This document shows, in pieces, positions 3,420 to 52,681 of a DNA stretch of 64,000 bases. This DNA comes from Octopus vulgaris (lineage: Eukaryota), in assembly GCA_951406725.2 (NCBI GenBank), contig OX597817.1, positions 102,672,001 through 102,736,000 on the forward strand, given 5' to 3'. The notes under the pieces are model-generated. The model worked only from the letters and a program-made list of their open reading frames with translations, was not told the DNA's origin and searched no databases. Both the position numbers and the translations under genes were made by a program. How positions within the stretch are numbered: position 1 is the stretch's first letter; each line of letters opens with the position of its first letter.

Positions 3420-4147
3420 ATGCATGCGTGTTTGTATACATGCGCGCGTATGCTAATGTTTCCTTGCCTTGAAATCGTGTGATAATTGTAAGCGAGTGTC
3501 ACCGTCATGCAATCAGTGTCTTTTGCTTCCAATCGTTCGAGACATGTCTGATTTGATCATAAGGAAATATTACCTTGCTTAGATACAGGTGAAGGTCAGC
3601 AATGGGAAATCCAGCCCGCTGGAGAAAATTCGCCTCCACAAATTCTGGCTGTTCCAGGCAAGCAGGGAAAAGTTGACGCTAAAGATGATAATGATGATTA
3701 TAACGTTGTATAAGGAGATCCTCCGGAGTACAAAAACAGTATTGTACGTATGCCGATGGTGATGAATGACAGAAATAATACAGAGCCAGGCGGCAGCAGT
3801 ATGCTCGGCAGTATTTAGTTACGACCCGTTACGATGGGAATTCAAACCGAGCTAAGGTCGTTTTGCTTTTCATTCTTCTAGGGTTGATAAAATAAAGAAC
3901 AAATCAAATACTGGAGTTGATATAACAAACTAACACCTTCTCCATTCTCCCTAAACAAAACAGTCTTAGGCATTGAGCCTATATAAAAAATCATTTTTGC
4001 ATTAACACATAATAGCAAGCCCAACATATATCAGGTATTTATTCTTTTATGCAACTCTGGTGTCTCATACTTCTAGCTACAAATCATATTTATTTTACGT
4101 TTTTTCCCAGGGCAGAAAAAATACCATTAATATACAGCTAAAGGATA

Positions 4148-4835
4148 GGTGACAAGCTGGCAGAATCGTTAGCAAACCGAGCAAAATGCTTAGCGGTATT
4201 TCGTCTGTCTCTACGTTCTGAGTTCAAATTCTGCCGAGGTCGACTTTGCTTTTCATCCTTTCGGAGTCGATAAATTAAGCACCAATTGCGTACTGGGGTT
4301 GATCTAATCGACTGGCCCCCTCCCCAAAAATTTCGTGCCTTGTGCCTACAGTAGAAAACAATATATAGGGAAAGGGCAGGTGACGAATTGGCAGAACCGT
4401 TAGCAAGGCGAGCAAAATGCTTAGTGTCGTTCCGTCCGTTTTTACGTTCTGAGTTCAAATTCCACCGAGGTCGACTTTGCCTTTTATCCTTTCAAGGCCA
4501 ATAAAATATGTACCAGCTGAGCACTGAGGTTGATGCAATCGGCTAGCCCCTCCCCAAAATTTTCAGGCCTTGAGCCTAGAGCTGAAAGGAATATAGAGAG
4601 GAAAGAAAAGCCTGCGAGCTGGCAGAATCGTTAGCATACCGGGCAAAATGCTTAGCGTCGTTTCGTCCGTCTTTATGTTCTGAGTTCAAATTCTACCGAG
4701 GTCGACTTTGCCATTCATCCTGTCGAGGTCGATAAAATATGTACCAGTTGTATATGGGGTCGATATATTCGACTAGCTCTTTCACTCGAAATTGCTGGCC
4801 TTGTACCAAAATTTGAAGCCAACTTACAGGGAAAG
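4148..4835 (+). mobile_element. Three head-to-tail SINE family A copies
   Basis: CAGAA(T/C)CGTTAGC at 4161, 4392 and 4623 (231-bp spacing), each followed by GAGTTCAAATTC..CCGAGGTCGACTTTGC. Confidence 0.9.
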
Positions 4836-19844: not shown

Positions 19845-22386
19845 ATGGAATGGTTTGACCTCGGCTACTCCACTAAAAATATACTCACGCCATCCAACGA
19901 GCTGTGCACTCGTAAGCTGCTGGAAAAGATAATGGACGTGATTAGGAGTATGAGATGGAAAACATTCTACCACGACTTAGCCTCACCATCTCCGGAGAGC
20001 AAGAACTTTGGAATTAGATCGAGTAAACACCCATCCAAAATCAAGGACCTCAAAACCCTTCGAGGCGGACCTACTGGGCCTCATTTCCAAACTGAAATTC
20101 TGTAAGCCCTCTTCCTCCTTCCAACACATGCTTCGGGCCGACATTAGATTGTTAAAAACTCAGATAGGTCCCTCATCTTCTCTGATAAGACGAACAACTT
20201 ATATAGGGTAGACACCTTAGATTACGATAGACTACTAGGAAATAATATCACACAAAATTATAGACGCGTTTCTCTACACACATATAGCGACATCAACAGT
20301 GAAGCCAAAAAATTAGCTAACGAACTAGTGATAACGGATAGGGTAGAGATCCTAGCTAAAAGAAACACCTTCATTTCCTTAAAAGATCATAAACCGAACT
20401 TTACCTCAAACCCTAAATGATCAATCCGGCCAAATCCGAGATCGGTCTGGCGGGCAAGCACATATTGAGAGTTATCAATAACGACATAAGGAGTGCCACC
20501 AACATTTCCCTGTGGCGCAACACCAACGAAGTGACCGCATGGTTTAATACCAACAAAGGAAGAGGCAAAGCAAGGTTCACTCAGTTAGATATAGTCTACT
20601 TTTACCCGTCTACATCAAAAGAATTACTGGCCAAGGCGCTTTCTTTCGCTAACATTAGCGACAGAGATATAGAAGTTATTATGTATGCCAGAAAGACAGT
20701 GCTATTCAACAAAGGTTCAGCATGGGTCAAGCAGTCCGACCCCAATGGGCTCGTTTGACGTAGTCATGGGAGCCTACGACAGCGCTGACGTATGTGGCCT
20801 CATCGAGTTGTATATCCTCGATACCCTTAGGAAAAAGTTCTCCACTGTCCCCTTTGGCCTCTACAGAGATGATGCCCTGGCTATCTCTATGGGAGTAAGC
20901 GGAAATACACTAGACAGGCTTAGAAAACATCTAATCAGCACGCTGGCCTCCATGGGATTGAAGATCACCATAGGAACCAACATCACAACCGCGGATTTCT
21001 TAGACGTCACGCTCGACTTGGGCTCCAATACAAACCAAATGAAAGGCTAACGAACATCAACACAGCCTCCTTCTACCCACCCATCATGTTCAAAAACCCG
21101 GTAAAGGGTGTTAGTAAGATCACGAACCTTTCTTCCAACCAAGAGATTTCCGACGCAGCGGCCCCCTACTATAACGAGGCCCTAGCTGCCAGCGGATTTA
21201 GAGACCGCATTTCCTACATGCTGGTACCCAACAACCACAGAAGGAAGCGCCGCAGAAATACCACTTGGTCCCCACCACCTCCTTCTTTCATCACTAGCTC
21301 CCATAGGTACGGGCCCATTTTCAACAGACACAACGTCAGAGTCTCGTTTAGCTGTGCCCCCAATATTAAGAGCATCCTAATTAGTGCCGCTAAGCCACAG
21401 GAAGAGGCAGGATGTTCATGCAGGGACGGCAACAGATGCCTGGTGGAAGGCCACTGCGAAACCAAAGGGGTCGTCTATCAAGCCGAAGTACTAGCAAACC
21501 CTGGCAATACCACCGGCAGAAGCAGTAGCAGCCGTAGACAAGAGAACAGAACCAGCAACACCGCTACCATTGCCACAGTTAATAGCATTAGCAACAATAG
21601 TAATAACAGCACCAGCAACAGCATTGACAATTACCCTGACGGCAACAACACTAACAACAGCAGCATCGTCATCAACACCAGCATTACCAACAGCTTCCCA
21701 AACGTCCACAGTAGTAGGCCTGACAACCCCTATAACAATAGCAACAGGTCCAGTGCCATCGCCAGCTAACGGCAATAACAGCAGCAGCAGCGACAATGGC
21801 CCTAGCAGAAACACCAGCAGAGCTACAGCTAATGACACCTGTAGTAGCAATGGCAACTTTCCCATCCGTGACGAGGACCACAATAATAACAACAACAGTG
21901 CCTTCACCATAACAGGCAGTGGCGATACCATTACCGACGCTACCACCACCTCCAGCGACGCCAACACCAGCAGTCATAGCTCCAACAACAACAATGTCAG
22001 CGGCAGCAGCAGCAACAACAAAGGCAATACCCGCAGGTACAGCACCGACAACACTCGCCCACGGAGACACAGTGGATGCTCCATGAACTCTTTTAAGCAA
22101 CATCTCTCCATCCACAGATCCTCCTTCAGAGTTGCGGAAAGGAGGTACGTAATATCACCGGCCAGCCACGTCTGGCATCTAAAAGACGATGGGATTCCAT
22201 ACTCGATCTCATGGAAAATCCTCGAGAACCCAAAACCCTACATCAACGGGACGAAGCGTTGCAAGTTATGCATAGATGGACACGCGAGAATCCTAAGACT
22301 CGCTCGAACCAGAGAACATCCTTAACTCCAGAACGGAGATTTTCGGGCCATGTTTACATATCAAGAGGTTCCTACTAGCCTTTTGA
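19845..22386 (+). pseudogene. PLE polyprotein (RT + CxCx5Cx5C linker + GIY-YIG endonuclease), multiply frameshifted
   Basis: YSTKNILTP..IRSMRWK; INPAKSEIG; LDIVYFYPS; DVVMGAYDSADVC; GLYRDDAL; DFLDVTLDL; CSCRDGNRCLVEGHC; VVYQAEV..HSGCSMNSFKQ..W.LK..ISWKIL..PY..KRCKLC; ends LNSRTEIFGPCLHIKRFLLAF*. Confidence 0.9.
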
Positions 22387-29485: not shown

Positions 29486-31115
29486 TAATAATAATAATAA
29501 TAATTGTGTACAGTGCTCAGGTGCACTACAACTCATCTAAAGTGTATATATAATCAGGTGTAGTTTCGACGGATTTCAGGAAGCATGAGGGCCTTAAAGG
29601 ATGCAGTGTCATGGCAGTCAACAACTGATGCAGGCAGTTTATTCCATGCTTCAGCAACCCTGAGCGTGAAAAATGTTTCCGAAAGTCATGGGAGCTGTGC
29701 TGTTTTCTGACTTTGTAGGCATGTCCACGTGTGTTAGACACATGGAGATCAAAAAGGTGTTCAGTGTTGTTGTTGGTGAGGTGGTTGATAACCTTGTGGG
29801 TGTTTACCAAGTCCGTCGCCAGACGCCGGAGCTTCAGTGAATCCATGCTCAGGGAAACAAGGCGCTCAGAATATGGTAGGTGTCTAATGGAGGGTATGCG
29901 TTTGGTTGCACGTCTCTGGACAGATTCCAGGAGGTCAATGTTCTGAGCAAGATAGGGATTCCAAACTGATGATGCAAATTCCAAGTGTGGTCGTACCATA
30001 GCTGTATACAGTTTTAAATAGATGGCTGGAGAGCGGCTAACAAAAGTCTTGCTGAGTGATGCCAAGACACCCTCGGCCTTCTTGACAATTTTAGAGATAT
30101 GCTTTGTCCAACGCAAATCACTGCTGACAGTGATGCCTAGGTCACGCTCGCAAGAGGATTTCTTGATATCAGTGTTGTGGAGGGAGTATGTGGACGCAGG
30201 GTTTTTCTCCCAAAATGCATGGTGGTACACTTGTCCACAGCCAGTTTCAGTTGCCAGTCTGTGATCCATTGCTGCATTGTGTCTAGGTCTGATTGCAGGA
30301 AAGAGTTGTAGACATCAGGATCAGTCCTCTTGATTTCAAGGTACAGCTTGATGTCGTCTGCATATTTCAATACTGTGGCATTCTTTAAATTGGCATCTAT
30401 GTCATTAATGTATGCCACAAACAGGAGGGGACCAAGGACAGATCCCTGTGGTACACCCGATGACATCTCATATGGTGTAGAGTGCTGTCCTAGAACTGTG
30501 ACTACCTCCTTTCGGCTGAGGATGAAGGATTTCAACCAGTTAAAAAGGTCATCGCCCACACCCATTGCAGAGAGTTTCACCATAAGCCTTTTGTGTGGCA
30601 CAGAGTTGAAAGCCTTAGCAAAGTCAAGGTAGACAACATCCACCCATGAGCCACTGTCAGTGATCTGAGTAATGTCCTCAAGGAACTCGACAAGCTGGTC
30701 ACTGCAGCTGGAGTTAGGGACAAATCCATATTGTGAGGGTCGGATGAGACTGTGAGAGCTCCAGAAGTTCCAGAGTGTTTCTCTGACACACGATTCCATC
30801 AGTTTTGCAATACAGCTAGTGAGACTGACTGGGTGATAGTTGACAGGTGATGTGCGATCACCCTTTTTGAACAGAGGAATGACACTGGCAGTTTTCCACT
30901 GCTCTGGAGTAGCACCATTGTTGAGACAGTACTGGAAGAAAATAGAAAGCTGGTGTAAAAGGAAGTGCCTGCCACGTTTGAGAAGCAGGTATGTAACTCC
31001 ATCGAGACCAGGGGAGGCATAGTTGCGCTTATTTTGAAGGTGACATCGCAGCATTGCAGGTGTAAATTCCTTAGTTGTTATGGAGTTTGCTGTTAGTGAT
31101 GGTGAAGATGGTACT
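29486..31115 (-). mobile_element. 5'-truncated CR1/L2-group LINE (RT), two frameshifts, (TTA)n tail
   Basis: SPGLDG, PLFKKGD..NYHPVSLTS, YLDFAKAFNSVPH, SGVPQGSVLGPLLF, YADDIKL, ERDLG, VRPHLEFASSVWNP, LESVQRRATK, NTRGH (ORFs 30137-31054 and 29526-30269). Confidence 0.92.
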
Positions 31116-31442
31116 TTCTCTTTGGGTCCAAATATACATCAATCATATGGCAGTAAATTAGTGGAGGCATTAAAGTATGAGACTGAGTGCTTTGTGGTGG
31201 TACCCATTTTGGTTCCCTACAGTTTGTTCAAATTCCACCAAGATCAACTTAGTCTCTCATTCTTTTGGGGTCAATGAATACAATACCAGTCAAGCACTGA
31301 AGTCAATTCTTTATTTTCTCCTCCTCCACTGCAATCACCACCACCAATACCTCCTCTTCCTCCCCTTCTTCTCCTCCTTCACATTCTCCTCCTCCTCCCT
31401 TCTACTCCTCCTTCACCTCCTCCTCTTCATCCCCCTTCTTAT

Positions 31443-42396: not shown

Positions 42397-42474
42397 GTAA
42401 ATTTCAATCTAGCTTGCTTGCTTGTAATGTTACTCAGCGAAACTGGCACATAATGGGAAAATACTATGAATTTA

Positions 42475-43162
42475 ATAATAAATCTCTGGGCGAGATATAA
42501 ACAGTAACTGCTCTATAACATAAGAGGGATCAGCCATCTGAATGTGGCTAGGGTCGGGGCGGGGTGGTGGGGGTGTTACTGATGCATTTAGCCCCAGGCG
42601 AACATCGACGTCACCAGAAGAGCTGACACCATCTCGGTGTCCTTGCCAGCCAGCAAAGGGAGATCAGCCTCCCCGAAGATACGGATACTACACACGGACC
42701 GTTCTGGTGACGTCGATGTTCGCCTGGGGCTAAATGCATCAGTAACACCCCCACCACCCCGCCCTGACCCTAGCCACATTCAGATGGCTGATCCCTCTTA
42801 TGTTATAGAGCAGTTACTGTTTATATCTCGCCCAGAGATTTATTATTGTTTTCGAACAGATTTTCTACGCCAGTGACTGTGGTTACTGTGAAAATCTATA
42901 TATATCCAGCCGGTAGAGGAAGTCCCTCAACGAAGAGCGGTGCTTACCATACGTTGACAAGAGGCAATAACCTCGAAACCGGTCCGTGTGTAGTATCCGT
43001 ATCTTCGGGAAGGCTGATCTCCCTTTGCTGGCTGGCAAGGACACCGAGATGGTGTCAGCTCTTCTGGTGACGTCGATGTTCGCCTGGGGCTAAATGCATC
43101 AGTAACACCCCCACCACCCCGCCCTGACCCTAGCCACATTCAGATGGCTGATCCCTCTTATG
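42475..43162 (+). mobile_element. Young non-coding retro-insertion with 5' inversion; retrozyme-like 360-nt unit
   Basis: 14-bp TSD ATACTATGAATTTA (42461-42474 / 43163-43176); identical 101-bp direct repeat 42702-42802 / 43062-43162; 42475-42701 is an inverted near-identical copy. Confidence 0.85.
42948..42990 (+). ncRNA. Minimal type I hammerhead ribozyme, U3-A8 core variant
   Basis: CATACG-TTGACAA-GAGG caataa CCTC-GAAA-CCGG-TC|CGTGTG; predicted cleavage after C42984. Confidence 0.75.
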
Positions 43163-43896
43163 ATACTATGAATTTAGTTTACCCTGAAAAGTTAATACGA
43201 ATCGAATGAAACAAATTTCGCGTAAATCAGTAAAGTAATTTTCAAGATATTAGAGATTTTCAAGGTATAAATACCCAAAACGGTGCATAATGGGAAAATG
43301 TTGCGAAAATAATCTTCATCCTTGAAGGGAAGAAACTCTTATCTTTCTATTAGACAGTGAACTGACAACGAGAAAAAAAATGGTCTTTTTTTTTCTTACA
43401 ATTTCTATTTTCGCTTTTGTTAAACATAATATTTTAATCATTTTTGAGTTAATGTGATTACAAAATTGTAAGCTATTTGTACAGTAAGTATGTATATTTT
43501 AGCTTTCTCTAAATGATAATATTTTAATATTTTTCAAAATTATCTTAAAGTGAATATCATTACAAGAAATTTTTTGGCACATTTAAAAGATGTTCTTAAG
43601 TGAAAATTACTTAAAAAATACGGTAGATATTTCGTAAAAGACCTATTCGTAACCTCAGTGTAAAATAGTTTTTTCGAGTGCATTCAACGTATCTCCCCTC
43701 CAAAGATTTGGCGCTATCTCTAGCACGCCCTGCTACCACGCAATAGCTCTTTGCGATAAAGGACCCAAAATGCTTGTTACGTGGTAACAGGGCGTGCAAG
43801 AAATAGCAGCCAAATCTTTCCAACCCACAAAACAAAACTCTGTTGCTAGGAAACTCAGAGTTTCCCGGTGACCCAACGGGTTACGGGTAGTCTAGT

Positions 43897-44821: not shown

Positions 44822-45288
44822 TTCTCTTCTTAAGGCTTAAGGATGTATCATGCGCGGGGACATAGAAATAATCGAACTGAATACCCGATCGCGCGGTTAA
44901 ACCATTGGGAGTAAAGGACTCCTAGCTTTTGTTAGGGCATCCTTCTAGGAGAAGGTAACTCAGGTAACTGGGATAACTCCGACATAAAACCTGCGGCTCA
45001 GTGGTTACCGATGATGTTGACGTGTTCTTCTTTTCGGATTATGGCTGTTGTTGCTTAGTGAGTGGGATTGACTCAGTGCACAGCCTTTCCTCATTTAAAA
45101 AGAAATCTTCTTGCACAGGCATTGCACGATAACAACATTGTTCATGATTGTTGATAGTGCTGTGAGTCTCAACTGAATGGCTGGCTGTAGACTTAAAAAG
45201 AAAATAAAAGTCACATTCGATCACAGCACCAGAAACAGTTAAGCTTTGTGCAATGGCCATACTCGATAACGAGGAGGCAGCCATCATG
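44560..45288 (+). mobile_element. Non-coding element with RTE 5'UTR-like segment and (TATG)n tail, copy 1
   Basis: High-identity inverted copy at 46643-47202; GGCATCCTTCTAGGAGAAGGTAACTC resembles RTE 5'UTR motifs; (TATG)n on both flanks. Confidence 0.7.
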
Positions 45289-45354
45289 TATGTATGTATG
45301 TATGTATGTTTATGAATCAATGTTATTTTATTTTTACTATAATATAAGTTTATT

Positions 45355-46614
45355 TATTCTTATTCAAGAATATTACACCAGACTAAAAAAAATATGGCAG
45401 TCTGAACTCTCCTGTTACAAGACAATGCCCCACAATGCATTTGCAGTACGGGTACTGATTCCAGTATTTGGGATACTTAACTTGTCTGTAGAAGAAATCC
45501 ACTTCAAAGACATTAAAACCTGCAAGATTCTAACCTTAACTGGAAACCTCCACGGAAACAGTGATATCGACACACTGTACCTCAGAAGAGATAAAGGAAG
45601 TAGAGGCTTGAGATCAGTGCAGACAGCTTTCGAATGTCTCATAATCTCTCTCAAATAGCACTTGCTAGACAGCAGTAGCAAAAATAAATACATTAACTTA
45701 GTGCGAGCTCCAAGGCGTATTCTCTCTTCCTGATGACCTCCCACACAACCCCAATTCAGTCGGACTAGCATGCCTCAAAGAAGAACTGGATTTCAAACGC
45801 TCAGCATATCAAAAAAAAAAAAAAAAAAAAGCTTATGCATGGGTATGTTTCCCGGACACTTGAAGAAAATAGTAACATTGACATAAAACGAAGCCTCTCT
45901 TTGAATCGTGACCGCTACATCACATCACACTTCAAAGGCTATGCATTTGCAGTCCAAGAACAGGAGATTGCTAATCAACAAAAGAGACTGTGAAGCCCTT
46001 TGAGCTCCAAGATGTAAATGTAGATTATGTCATATTTCTGTGGAAGATATCAAACATGTGATTAACAGCTGCCCAAATAATGCCATCAGGGTACTACTTC
46101 CCAATGCTTCATAACATTGTCAGAAAAACAATACGCAATGCCATTCGGAAAAAAAAAAACGTCCTGGAATAAATATAGAGAACCCCACTGTTATTGAAGA
46201 CGTAAACAAACATTCCCATCAAAACATCTGTGGGATATTGTTGCTTGAGCCGGACAAAGAAAAGTATGTACTGTCATAGAAGTCAACCGTCCTGCTGACG
46301 TGAATATCTCTTTGAAAATCAAAAAGAAACAAATTTACATTTATACCAATAATAATTGGAGCACTTGGCTTTGTAAGTAAATGCTTAACTGTCAGTCTGG
46401 ATAAGCTTGGATTTTCAGGAAAATAAATCACCTAACTGATTCGCACATTACAAATATAATCTGTATACGGAACAGTAAAACTATGCAAGACTTTTCTCAA
46501 ATTTAAAATGTGACATGGTTTTCGTTATCTATGTTCCAAAGGTGGAGATTTGTATCTTTGTTAGAAACGAGCTCCCTCACCAGAAAAAGAATTTAAATTA
46601 TTAAAAACAGAAGA
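45355..46614 (+). mobile_element. R4/Dong-clade non-LTR retrotransposon, 3' half, degenerate
   Basis: EYYTRLKKIWQSELS..HNAFAVRVL..SDIDTLYLRRDKGSRGL; MHGY; AVQEQEI; CRLCH.SVEDIKHVINSCP (CCHC); RLE remnant; 3' end abuts (CATA)n. Confidence 0.85.
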
Positions 46615-51707: not shown

Positions 51708-52143
51708 GTGTGTGTGTGTGTACTTTGGCATAACTTCAAGGATATCTTGAGCTCGCCTCCGCGATCTGATGCTACATTCGTTCACATATTGAAGCGTCTC
51801 GCAGTTGCGCTATAATCATGTTCAACGGCAAACTTTATCGTTTCTAATTTAGAATTCAGCTGAAGAATACATTTGGTGGGTAGCATGCTGACGGTAAGCG
51901 TATCACAAAGTAAATAAACTTTGAGGTGGGGGTGAAGGTTATCTATCAATATATACGGATCGTTATTTACAAATATCTTTTTACATACATTTCTGTAACA
52001 GAATGCAATAAAGTATTTTTACATACATACACACACCACTTACATACATACATAATACATACATACATACATACATACATACATACATACATACATACAT
52101 ACATACATACATACATACATACATACGTGCATACATACATACG

Positions 52144-52681
52144 TATGAAACTATGTACAGTTGTGGAAATTAGCTGCCCAGCGGATGTTAACATAAAGTT
52201 AAAGATCAGCGAAAAAGAAAATACCTACGCTGAACTACTGAGAAATCTACACCTACTCTATCCAGATTACAAGTTCAGGTTCATACCTGTATTTATTTGG
52301 ACACTGGGTTATGTAACACACTGCCCACATACCAATCTTAAGAAATTAGGCTTCTCAAAAGCAGAAAGAAGAAAGCTGATTCGAAGTCAACAGATCAAAG
52401 TCATCGCTGGAGCTGTAAAAATCTGCAAAACTTCCCAGAAGTTTATCATTTAAGTATATATGAGCATATCTAGGTATGCAACTATATGCATGAGAATACA
52501 TACATAAAACAAATCAAACAAATCTGCACACATACGTACATACATACATAATACATACTTACATACATACAAAAATACCCTGTTGATGTTGTTGAAATTC
52601 CAATGAAAGAGCCTTGGATCTAGGTTTGAAACCGGCTCTTTCTCCATTGGTCAGAAAAATTCAAATAGAAATGAATAATGA
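52144..52681 (+). mobile_element. R4/Dong-clade 3' fragment (RLE domain plus 3'UTR) within (CATA)n
   Basis: KLCTVVEISCPADVNIKLKISEKENTYAELLRNLHLLYPDYKFRFIPV..LGYVT..KICKT. Confidence 0.85.

What the first reader, a model, noticed from the sequence alone, without database searches (positions are those of the whole stretch)
42461..43176. Candidate retrozyme: young insertion that reconstructs to a circular 360-nt hammerhead RNA
Seen: a 688-bp insert between perfect 14-bp TSDs. The forward part (42702-43162, 461 bp) is one 360-bp unit plus 101 identical bases. The inverted part (42475-42701), read on the minus strand, starts 4-5 nt before the predicted HHR cut, crosses the 101-bp repeat and continues into sequence equal to 42803-42847. 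The two parts together therefore close a 360-nt circle or tandem multimer. I found only two mismatches between arms, and there is no convincing ORF. Established: non-LTR retrozymes are small HHR-containing non-autonomous retroelements with circular RNA intermediates, thought to use PLE enzymes, and 5' inversions with TSDs typify target-primed reverse transcription. Inference: a recently active small circular-RNA retroelement whose inverted cDNA ended near the ribozyme site. I cannot tell whether this family is already described.
Basis: partly seen in the sequence, partly recalled or inferred. Interest (0 to 1): 0.85.

Follow-up and report, generated by a model that had tools for sequence, protein, structure and literature searches.

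The report
Hammerhead retrozyme inserted by Penelope machinery
This is a young copy of a 360-base, protein-free repeat unit with a hammerhead ribozyme motif, and its sampled copies across the genome carry the insertion fingerprints of Penelope-like retrotransposons, so it likely borrows their enzymes and would be a compact test case for whether such elements are copied from RNA circles.

Summary
The anatomy is exactly as reported, and the 14-bp TSD is real. It is one of at least 53 dispersed insertions of a 360-nt, ORF-less unit with a canonical type I hammerhead motif (U3-A8 core, palindromic helix III). Two sister families keep the period and show compensatory changes in the ribozyme. The inverted arm is the Penelope-like (PLE) insertion signature, not a local oddity: 81 of 91 arms end at one of two fixed sites about 43 nt apart (the PLE 'tail'), and 25 of 31 inverted insertions use one site on each arm, as do 14 of 14 inverted insertions of coding PLEs in this genome. 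The claim that the inverted cDNA ended at the ribozyme fails: 0 of 91 arms start at the cut and 67 run through it, so the template was a circle or an uncut multimer. No RNA circle was shown, and no coding PLE with a homologous end was found; a Neptune family is the weakly favoured helper. Verdict: a new non-LTR retrozyme (non-autonomous PLE) family, giving direct genomic support for the proposed PLE mobilisation.

The parts
42461..42474 (+). Target-site duplication, left copy (14 bp)
   Evidence: single copy in 13 of 14 paralogous empty sites
42475..42701 (-). Inverted arm: unit positions 279-360 + 1-145/146; its 3' end is family end B (143-152) and it carries the tail
42702..43162 (+). Forward arm: one 360-nt unit + 101 nt; its 3' end is family end A (99-108), without tail
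42702..43061 (+). 360-nt non-coding unit; predicted circular fold -110.5 kcal/mol, z = -2.9 against 60 dinucleotide shuffles
42808..42850 (+). PLE-type 'tail' (unit 107-149) between the two fixed ends; predicted weak stem-loop whose two feet coincide with ends A and B
   Evidence: tail concept from PMC8557442 and PMC11167929
42948..42990 (+). Type I hammerhead motif: helix I 42948-53/42985-90, core TTGACAA 42954-60 (U3-A8), helix II 42961-64/42971-74, GAAA 42975-78, palindromic helix III ACCGGT 42978-83, predicted cut after C42984
   Evidence: U3-A8 variant and palindromic helix III described in PMC4209133
43163..43176 (+). Target-site duplication, right copy (14 bp)
42400..42460 (.). Left part of an older dispersed repeat that is the insertion target
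43177..43330 (.). Right part of the same host repeat (785 candidates, best 40 at 86-92% apart from itself)

Best explanation
The insert is a young copy of a non-coding 360-nt hammerhead-bearing unit whose copies show the Penelope-type insertion signature, and it is likely mobilised in trans by a Penelope-like reverse transcriptase/GIY-YIG protein, predicted to copy a circular monomer RNA. Shown: dispersed 0.1-4.5-unit insertions, two fixed 3' ends A (about 106) and B (about 148), one on each arm of inverted insertions, (TA)n or AT-rich targets with 7-14-bp duplications, and arms that read through up to three ribozyme cut sites. Inferred: read-through transcripts of loci with two or more ribozymes self-cleave in dimer mode through the palindromic helix III, and the monomer is ligated to a circle. 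A helper PLE protein then binds the tail stem-loop and nicks both target strands 7-14 bp apart. One 3' end primes cDNA at A and the other at B, both run round the template for random distances, and the two cDNAs are joined head to head. This window copy has one ribozyme only, so it is predicted to be a dead end as a source of monomers.
For: Family: 1490 first-look candidates, 40 scored at 95-100%; 117 exact ribozyme hits; 53 distinct insertions from 120 loci. Ends: A 48, B 33, other 10 of 91 arms; inverted pairs AB/BA 25, AA 1, BB 0, other 5 of 31 (p = 4e-7 for 25 of 26), the same in all three sampling routes. Coding PLEs of this genome follow the same rule: 11 of 11 Hydra-like, 2 of 2 Neptune-1 and 1 of 1 Neptune-2 inverted insertions. 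The two RT start sites that bound the tail were shown in vitro for an Anolis PLE (PMC11167929). 38 of 53 insertions touch a (TA)n run. 67 of 91 arms cross a cut site, 13 cross two or more, the longest is 3.1 units. Units and arms of one insertion share family variants (73 of 98 same-arm, 109 of 151 cross-arm, against 4223 of 28833 between loci). The ribozyme is conserved: core 1 change in 528 calls against 2-3% elsewhere; 6 of 14 pairs change on both sides over three families, including C3-G8/U3-G8/U3-A8; helix III stays palindromic. Mussel retrozymes of 350-390 nt are abundant circles (PMC7229834).
Against: No circle, cleavage or transcript is shown. Read-through arms fit uncut multimers equally, and in the Anolis PLE the ribozyme was dispensable and uncut RNA was the main template. 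Coding PLEs here also make tandems (Hydra-like, at least 4 units) with no known circle. 8 of 9 Xenopus retrozyme dimers did not cleave in vitro. No coding PLE with homology to the unit was found among 94 PLE loci. The basal pair of helix II is a mismatch in 9 of 14 aligned ribozymes, mainly in the sister families; the pair-shuffle control ignores relatedness. GC is 49%, above the <45% quoted for retrozymes.
Confidence: 0.62

Rival explanations
1. Same non-autonomous PLE-mobilised unit, but the template is uncut linear multimeric RNA from genomic tandems; tandem length is renewed by template jumps, and the ribozyme acts elsewhere in the cycle or not at all.
For: Fits every genomic count. Ribozyme mutants did not affect insertion by the Anolis PLE in vitro. 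Coding PLEs make tandems too.
Against: The longest arm seen is 3.1 units and no large array appears among the first 100 of 117 exact ribozyme hits, so linear copying with 5' truncation would shorten tandems every round. The period is held at about 350-361 nt and the ribozyme is conserved across three lineages.
Confidence: 0.28
2. The copies are 5'-truncated pLTR-only products of a coding PLE that I did not sample.
For: The insertion signature is that of coding PLEs. Only 40 of 1490 DNA candidates and 150 of about 6100 protein candidates per search were scored; a repeat paper on a similar genome lists 30 young Penelope families (PMC13282606).
Against: Arms longer than one unit repeat the unit instead of entering an ORF (up to 3.1 units). 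The 5' flanks of 18 single-arm copies share nothing. PLE ORF fragments near 6 of 53 insertions lie at least 280 bp away and belong to different families.
Confidence: 0.07
3. A SINE-like RNA inserted by a LINE (L1/RTE type), with the inversion made by twin priming.
For: A 14-bp TSD with a 5' inversion; such LINEs are common in animal genomes, and an RT of a LINE lies in the window.
Against: No poly(A) or simple-repeat tail of its own. Both arms end at fixed internal sites, and the arms overlap in template coordinates in 31 of 31 inverted insertions (21-360 positions), whereas twin-primed arms do not overlap (recalled).
Confidence: 0.02
4. Assembly artefact or local foldback duplication.
For: Inverted and tandem repeats are error-prone to assemble.
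Against: Real TSD against empty paralogues, two private differences between arms, and the same architecture at dozens of loci and in a sister family.
Confidence: 0.01

Closest known systems
Metazoan non-LTR retrozymes (Cervera and de la Pena 2020, PMC7229834), especially the 350-390-bp Mytilus repeats
   Same: 150-450-bp non-coding unit in tandem, canonical type I hammerhead with short palindromic helix III, TSDs longer than 4 bp, coexistence with coding PLEs, mollusc-like host.
   Different: No sequence link tested (supplement unreadable). GC 49%. Copies are dispersed 1-3-unit insertions with inverted arms and a PLE tail, which the passages I read do not describe. Circles are shown there, not here.
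Insertion units of endonuclease-positive PLEs (Penelope/Poseidon, Neptune, Hydra, Naiad; PMC8557442, PMC3846280, PMC11167929)
   Same: Partial tandems, adjacent inverted 5'-truncated copy, tail at one end only, (TA)n bias, TSD of about 8-14 bp, hammerhead near the 3' end, U3-A8 core variant (PMC4209133).
   Different: No ORF; the whole period is 360 nt; the tail is about 43 nt; no homology to the three young coding families sampled here.
Non-autonomous Chlamys elements such as MRC1 (PMC8557442)
   Same: Non-coding PLE parasites that form pLTRs and multicopy head-to-tail insertions.
   Different: Those share 3' sequence with their autonomous partner and mostly lack hammerheads; this one has a hammerhead and no identified partner.
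Vertebrate retrozymes as PLE derivatives (bioRxiv 10.64898/2026.07.22.740005)
   Same: Proposes a PLE origin and PLE-driven mobilisation.
   Different: That work rests on co-occurrence and pLTR similarity and invokes local tandem growth after insertion. Here each short tandem lies inside one insertion with its own target duplication and PLE ends, which points to tandems made during insertion.

Membership tests
non-LTR retrozyme | Canonical type I hammerhead motif in each unit | tested here: met
   Helix I 6 bp, helix II 4 bp, palindromic helix III, core U3-A8; conserved and covarying. No Rfam hit.
non-LTR retrozyme | Tandem units of 150-450 bp | tested here: met
   360-nt period; 13 of 91 arms hold two or more cut sites. 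The window copy has one ribozyme, so it fails the preprint's 'active locus' rule, but the family meets it.
non-LTR retrozyme | No protein-coding capacity | tested here: met
   Longest ATG frame 70 aa; no ORF attached in 53 insertions.
non-LTR retrozyme | No LTR, primer-binding site or polypurine tract | not tested
   No LTR architecture seen; PBS and PPT were not searched.
non-LTR retrozyme | TSDs longer than 4 bp when present | tested here: met
   7-14-nt exact repeats in 8 of 15 non-(TA)n insertions.
non-LTR retrozyme | Low GC (<45% or <50% in PMC7229834; descriptive) | tested here: inconclusive
   Unit 49.2%.
non-LTR retrozyme | Self-cleavage | not testable with these tools
   Needs an in vitro assay.
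non-LTR retrozyme | Expressed as circular monomer RNA | tested here: inconclusive
   Only contigs of runs of unrecorded kind were available; a looped contig arises from tandem DNA as well.
autonomous PLE | ORF with PLE reverse transcriptase and GIY-YIG endonuclease | tested here: not met
PLE-mobilised element (works like) | Partial tandem, inverted 5' copy, tail at one end only, TA/AT target bias | tested here: met
   same rule in 14 of 14 inverted insertions of coding PLEs of this genome
PLE-mobilised element (works like) | 3' homology to an autonomous partner | tested here: inconclusive
   None in 94 PLE loci from about four families; most PLE candidates were not scored.
L1-type twin-primed insertion | Poly(A) 3' end and non-overlapping arms (recalled definition) | tested here: not met
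   Arms overlap in 31 of 31; no poly(A).

The most novel reading that the evidence does not exclude
An actively spreading animal retrozyme whose circular 360-nt RNA is copied by a sequence-unrelated PLE protein that recognises only a structural mimic of the PLE tail. Both target strands are primed in one event at the two feet of the tail stem-loop, so tandems and inversions are made during insertion. This would be direct evidence for rolling-circle TPRT by a PLE and would explain the PLE tandem/inverted/tail architecture in general.
Probability: 0.4. Interest if true: 0.78.

Novelty: new member of a known kind. Interest (0 to 1): 0.5.

Why it matters
PLEs are only a 'strong candidate' for mobilising animal retrozymes (PMC7229834), and how PLE tandems, inversions and tails arise is still open (PMC8557442). 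This family shows the full PLE signature on a stand-alone retrozyme. It is young (median 98% identity to the window copy), only 360 nt long, and sits beside three young PLE families with intact ORFs. That makes the helper, the template form (circle or multimer) and the two-site priming model testable in the published in vitro assay.

Tried and rejected
Rfam found nothing at gathering level in the window, and only hairpin-driven noise by E-value.

Ribozyme-linked breakpoint: rejected.

Helper search: blastn, local alignment against shuffles and a profile from seven units found no homology in the Hydra-like, Neptune-1 or Neptune-2 ends. The tail hit in L240 is a separate sister-family insertion 800 bp beyond that PLE's end. 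One pattern search found nothing. A wider look around 20 hits of the third family could not be made, so whether any of them abuts an ORF is open; 4 short stretches were read.

Expression: no RNA holder listed; this says nothing either way. I laid 4 of 24 runs, all as contigs. Three runs only guessed to be RNA cover most of the unit, and one 390-nt contig closes the 360-nt loop, but kind, strand and circularity cannot be told. Joints that skip the insert in X15 cannot be told from paralogues of the host repeat, so polymorphism is unknown.

Variant sharing within insertions cannot separate a circle from a homogeneous multimer.

Literature: searches found no report of this family or of a cephalopod retrozyme. 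The supplement of PMC7229834 could not be read and bioRxiv supplements are closed; Repbase, Dfam and the repeat library of PMC13282606 were not available and may hold it under another label. Earlier notes of this scan hold nothing for this sequence or genome.

Full report
Observation. The window lies in a 2.8-Gb animal genome (G000:C4). From its size and microsatellite and repeat make-up I infer a cephalopod-like mollusc; no call names it. All coordinates of the finding check out. There are 14-bp repeats at 42461-42474 and 43163-43176, a forward arm of 360 + 101 nt, and a 227-nt inverted arm equal to unit positions 279-360 and 1-145/146 with two mismatches. The target is an older dispersed repeat, and 13 of 14 paralogues carry the 14-mer once between contiguous flanks, so the duplication arose at insertion. 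There is no ORF.

Ribozyme. Positions 42948-42990 form a canonical metazoan type I hammerhead motif as defined in PMC4209133 (parts 1-2 of 4 read): helix I 6 bp, helix II 4 bp, and a palindromic helix III predicted to need a second copy. The core has the U3-A8 covariation that paper reports in Schistosoma PLEs. Rfam misses it. Within the family the core differs in 1 of 528 base calls against 2-3% elsewhere. Two sister families were found: an older one, collinear over the whole unit, with a C3-G8 core (53 pattern hits), and a young 361-nt one with 293 of 352 aligned positions identical (415 hits of a pattern that covers both sisters). Across 14 aligned ribozymes 89.8% of cells pair and 6 of 14 pairs change on both sides, but the basal helix II pair is unpaired in 9 of 14 and the shuffle control ignores relatedness. 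Activity is untested.

Family. The unit gave 1490 first-look candidates, of which 40 were scored; exact motifs gave 62 tail and 117 ribozyme hits. I fetched 30 loci from each of four searches; the 120 collapse to 53 distinct insertions with 91 arms. Two samples were score-ranked and favour long, young copies; two were in genome order. Architecture: 31 inverted pairs, 18 single arms, 4 complex. Of 91 arm 3' ends, 48 fall at 99-108 (A), 33 at 143-152 (B) and 10 elsewhere. Of 31 inverted insertions 25 have one A and one B end, 1 has AA, none BB, and 5 have an end at neither site and were left out of the binomial test (p = 4e-7). The pattern holds in each sampling route. Single arms end at A in 13 and B in 4 of 18. 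38 of 53 insertions touch (TA)n; 8 of the other 15 show 7-14-nt repeats, some overlapping the element end. Four of four insertions of the 361-nt sister show the same ends.

This is the PLE signature. PMC8557442 (passages) describes partial tandems, an adjacent inverted truncated copy, a 30-40-bp tail often at one end only, and (TA)n bias. PMC3846280 (passages) adds 8-10-bp TSDs and trans-mobilisation by pLTR sequence alone. PMC11167929 (parts 1-2 of 4) shows in vitro that a PLE protein nicks both strands at AT-rich sites and starts reverse transcription at two internal sites that bound the tail. In this genome I found young coding PLEs: a Hydra-like 717-aa family and two Neptune-like families. 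These clade labels rest on motifs described in PMC8557442, not on a tree. All 14 of their inverted insertions that I could read have one A-type and one B-type end.

The breakpoint claim. Arm 5' ends are scattered: 4 of 91 within 274-293 against 5.1 expected, none at 282-286, and 2 of 68 arms that reach the cut stop near it. 67 arms cross a cut site and 13 cross two or more. A cleaved linear monomer therefore cannot be the template; it is a circle or an uncut multimer. Units and arms of one insertion share family variants far more than different insertions do, consistent with one source template per event but not deciding its shape. The two arms overlap in template coordinates in 31 of 31 cases, which fits two cDNAs started either side of the tail on one circle or on two RNAs. 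The tail is predicted to fold into a weak stem-loop (-7.9 kcal/mol) with A and B at its feet; this is a hint only.

Helper. No homology to the unit was found in 94 PLE loci, and no ORF is attached to any of 53 insertions. Neptune-1 is weakly favoured by analogy: a U3-A8 core with palindromic helix III, a tail of similar length (about 33-40 nt against 43; Hydra-like about 69, Neptune-2 about 26-30), a short CTCG/GAG hairpin followed by TATTAT before end B, and an A bias in single-arm copies (10 A and 1 B among 11 such loci). None of this was tested statistically. My rough odds: Neptune-type 0.6, Hydra-type 0.15, unsampled family 0.25.

RNA. No conclusion is possible (see Tried and rejected).

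Comparison. It meets the sequence-level features of non-LTR retrozymes in PMC7229834 (passages and part 3 of 6), with cleavage and circles untested and GC borderline. The 2026 preprint (parts 1-3 of 5) already argues that animal retrozymes are non-autonomous PLE derivatives, so the kind is known. What I did not find in six searches is this family, or the PLE tail and inversion rule documented on a retrozyme. PMC13282606 (passages) has no mention of ribozymes; PMC11722881 (passages) repeats the PLE hypothesis. Unseen supplements and repeat libraries may list the family. Earlier notes of this scan on other genomes describe similar PLE-type insertions of short units; they are unchecked leads.

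Verdict. Real, young and multi-copy; a new non-LTR retrozyme / non-autonomous PLE family. My odds: PLE-type mobilisation about 0.9, and a circular template about 0.65-0.7 given that. Interest 0.5.

Noticed in passing
window 20673-22325: Decayed Hydra-like PLE (RT and endonuclease remnants interrupted by a low-complexity insert); its RT piece retrieved the young intact 717-aa family.
   Followed up: partly
L091/L092 (G000:C1:57.21-57.22 Mb); L240:5290-5345: The Hydra-like and Neptune-2 pLTRs both carry a hammerhead-like motif with an unusual core (CCGAAGA ... TGAAA) in otherwise unrelated sequence.
   Followed up: no
L232:1267-4967: Neptune-1 has an upstream 479-aa frame overlapping the 781-aa RT-EN frame, an internally repeated 3' UTR of about 1 kb and a U3-A8 hammerhead-like motif with poor helix I.
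   Followed up: partly
L240:3081-5480: Neptune-2 is extremely young: 39 further copies at 99-100% identity over 1.2 kb.
   Followed up: no
window 42954 (runs X1, X7): The main contigs of two runs read C at ribozyme position 3 with A kept at position 8, a mismatch of the 3-8 pair.
   Followed up: no
L161:2187-3046: A 5'-truncated young Hydra-like ORF begins directly after a sister-family tail within a duplicated inverted structure; nested insertion or template switch.
   Followed up: no
L260 and window 42456-42466: Two independent non-(TA)n targets both contain GGAAAATACTA at the insertion site; chance or endonuclease preference.
   Followed up: no
window 29526-31138 (-): Fragmented LINE reverse transcriptase (Pfam RVT_1, E 2e-35); CR1-like by recalled motifs.
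   Followed up: no
window 45197-45658 and 51914-52453: Frames that resemble Dong/R4-type LINE remnants (label recalled; no Pfam hit).
   Followed up: no
window 4129-4777: 231-bp tandem repeat, 2.8 copies.
   Followed up: no
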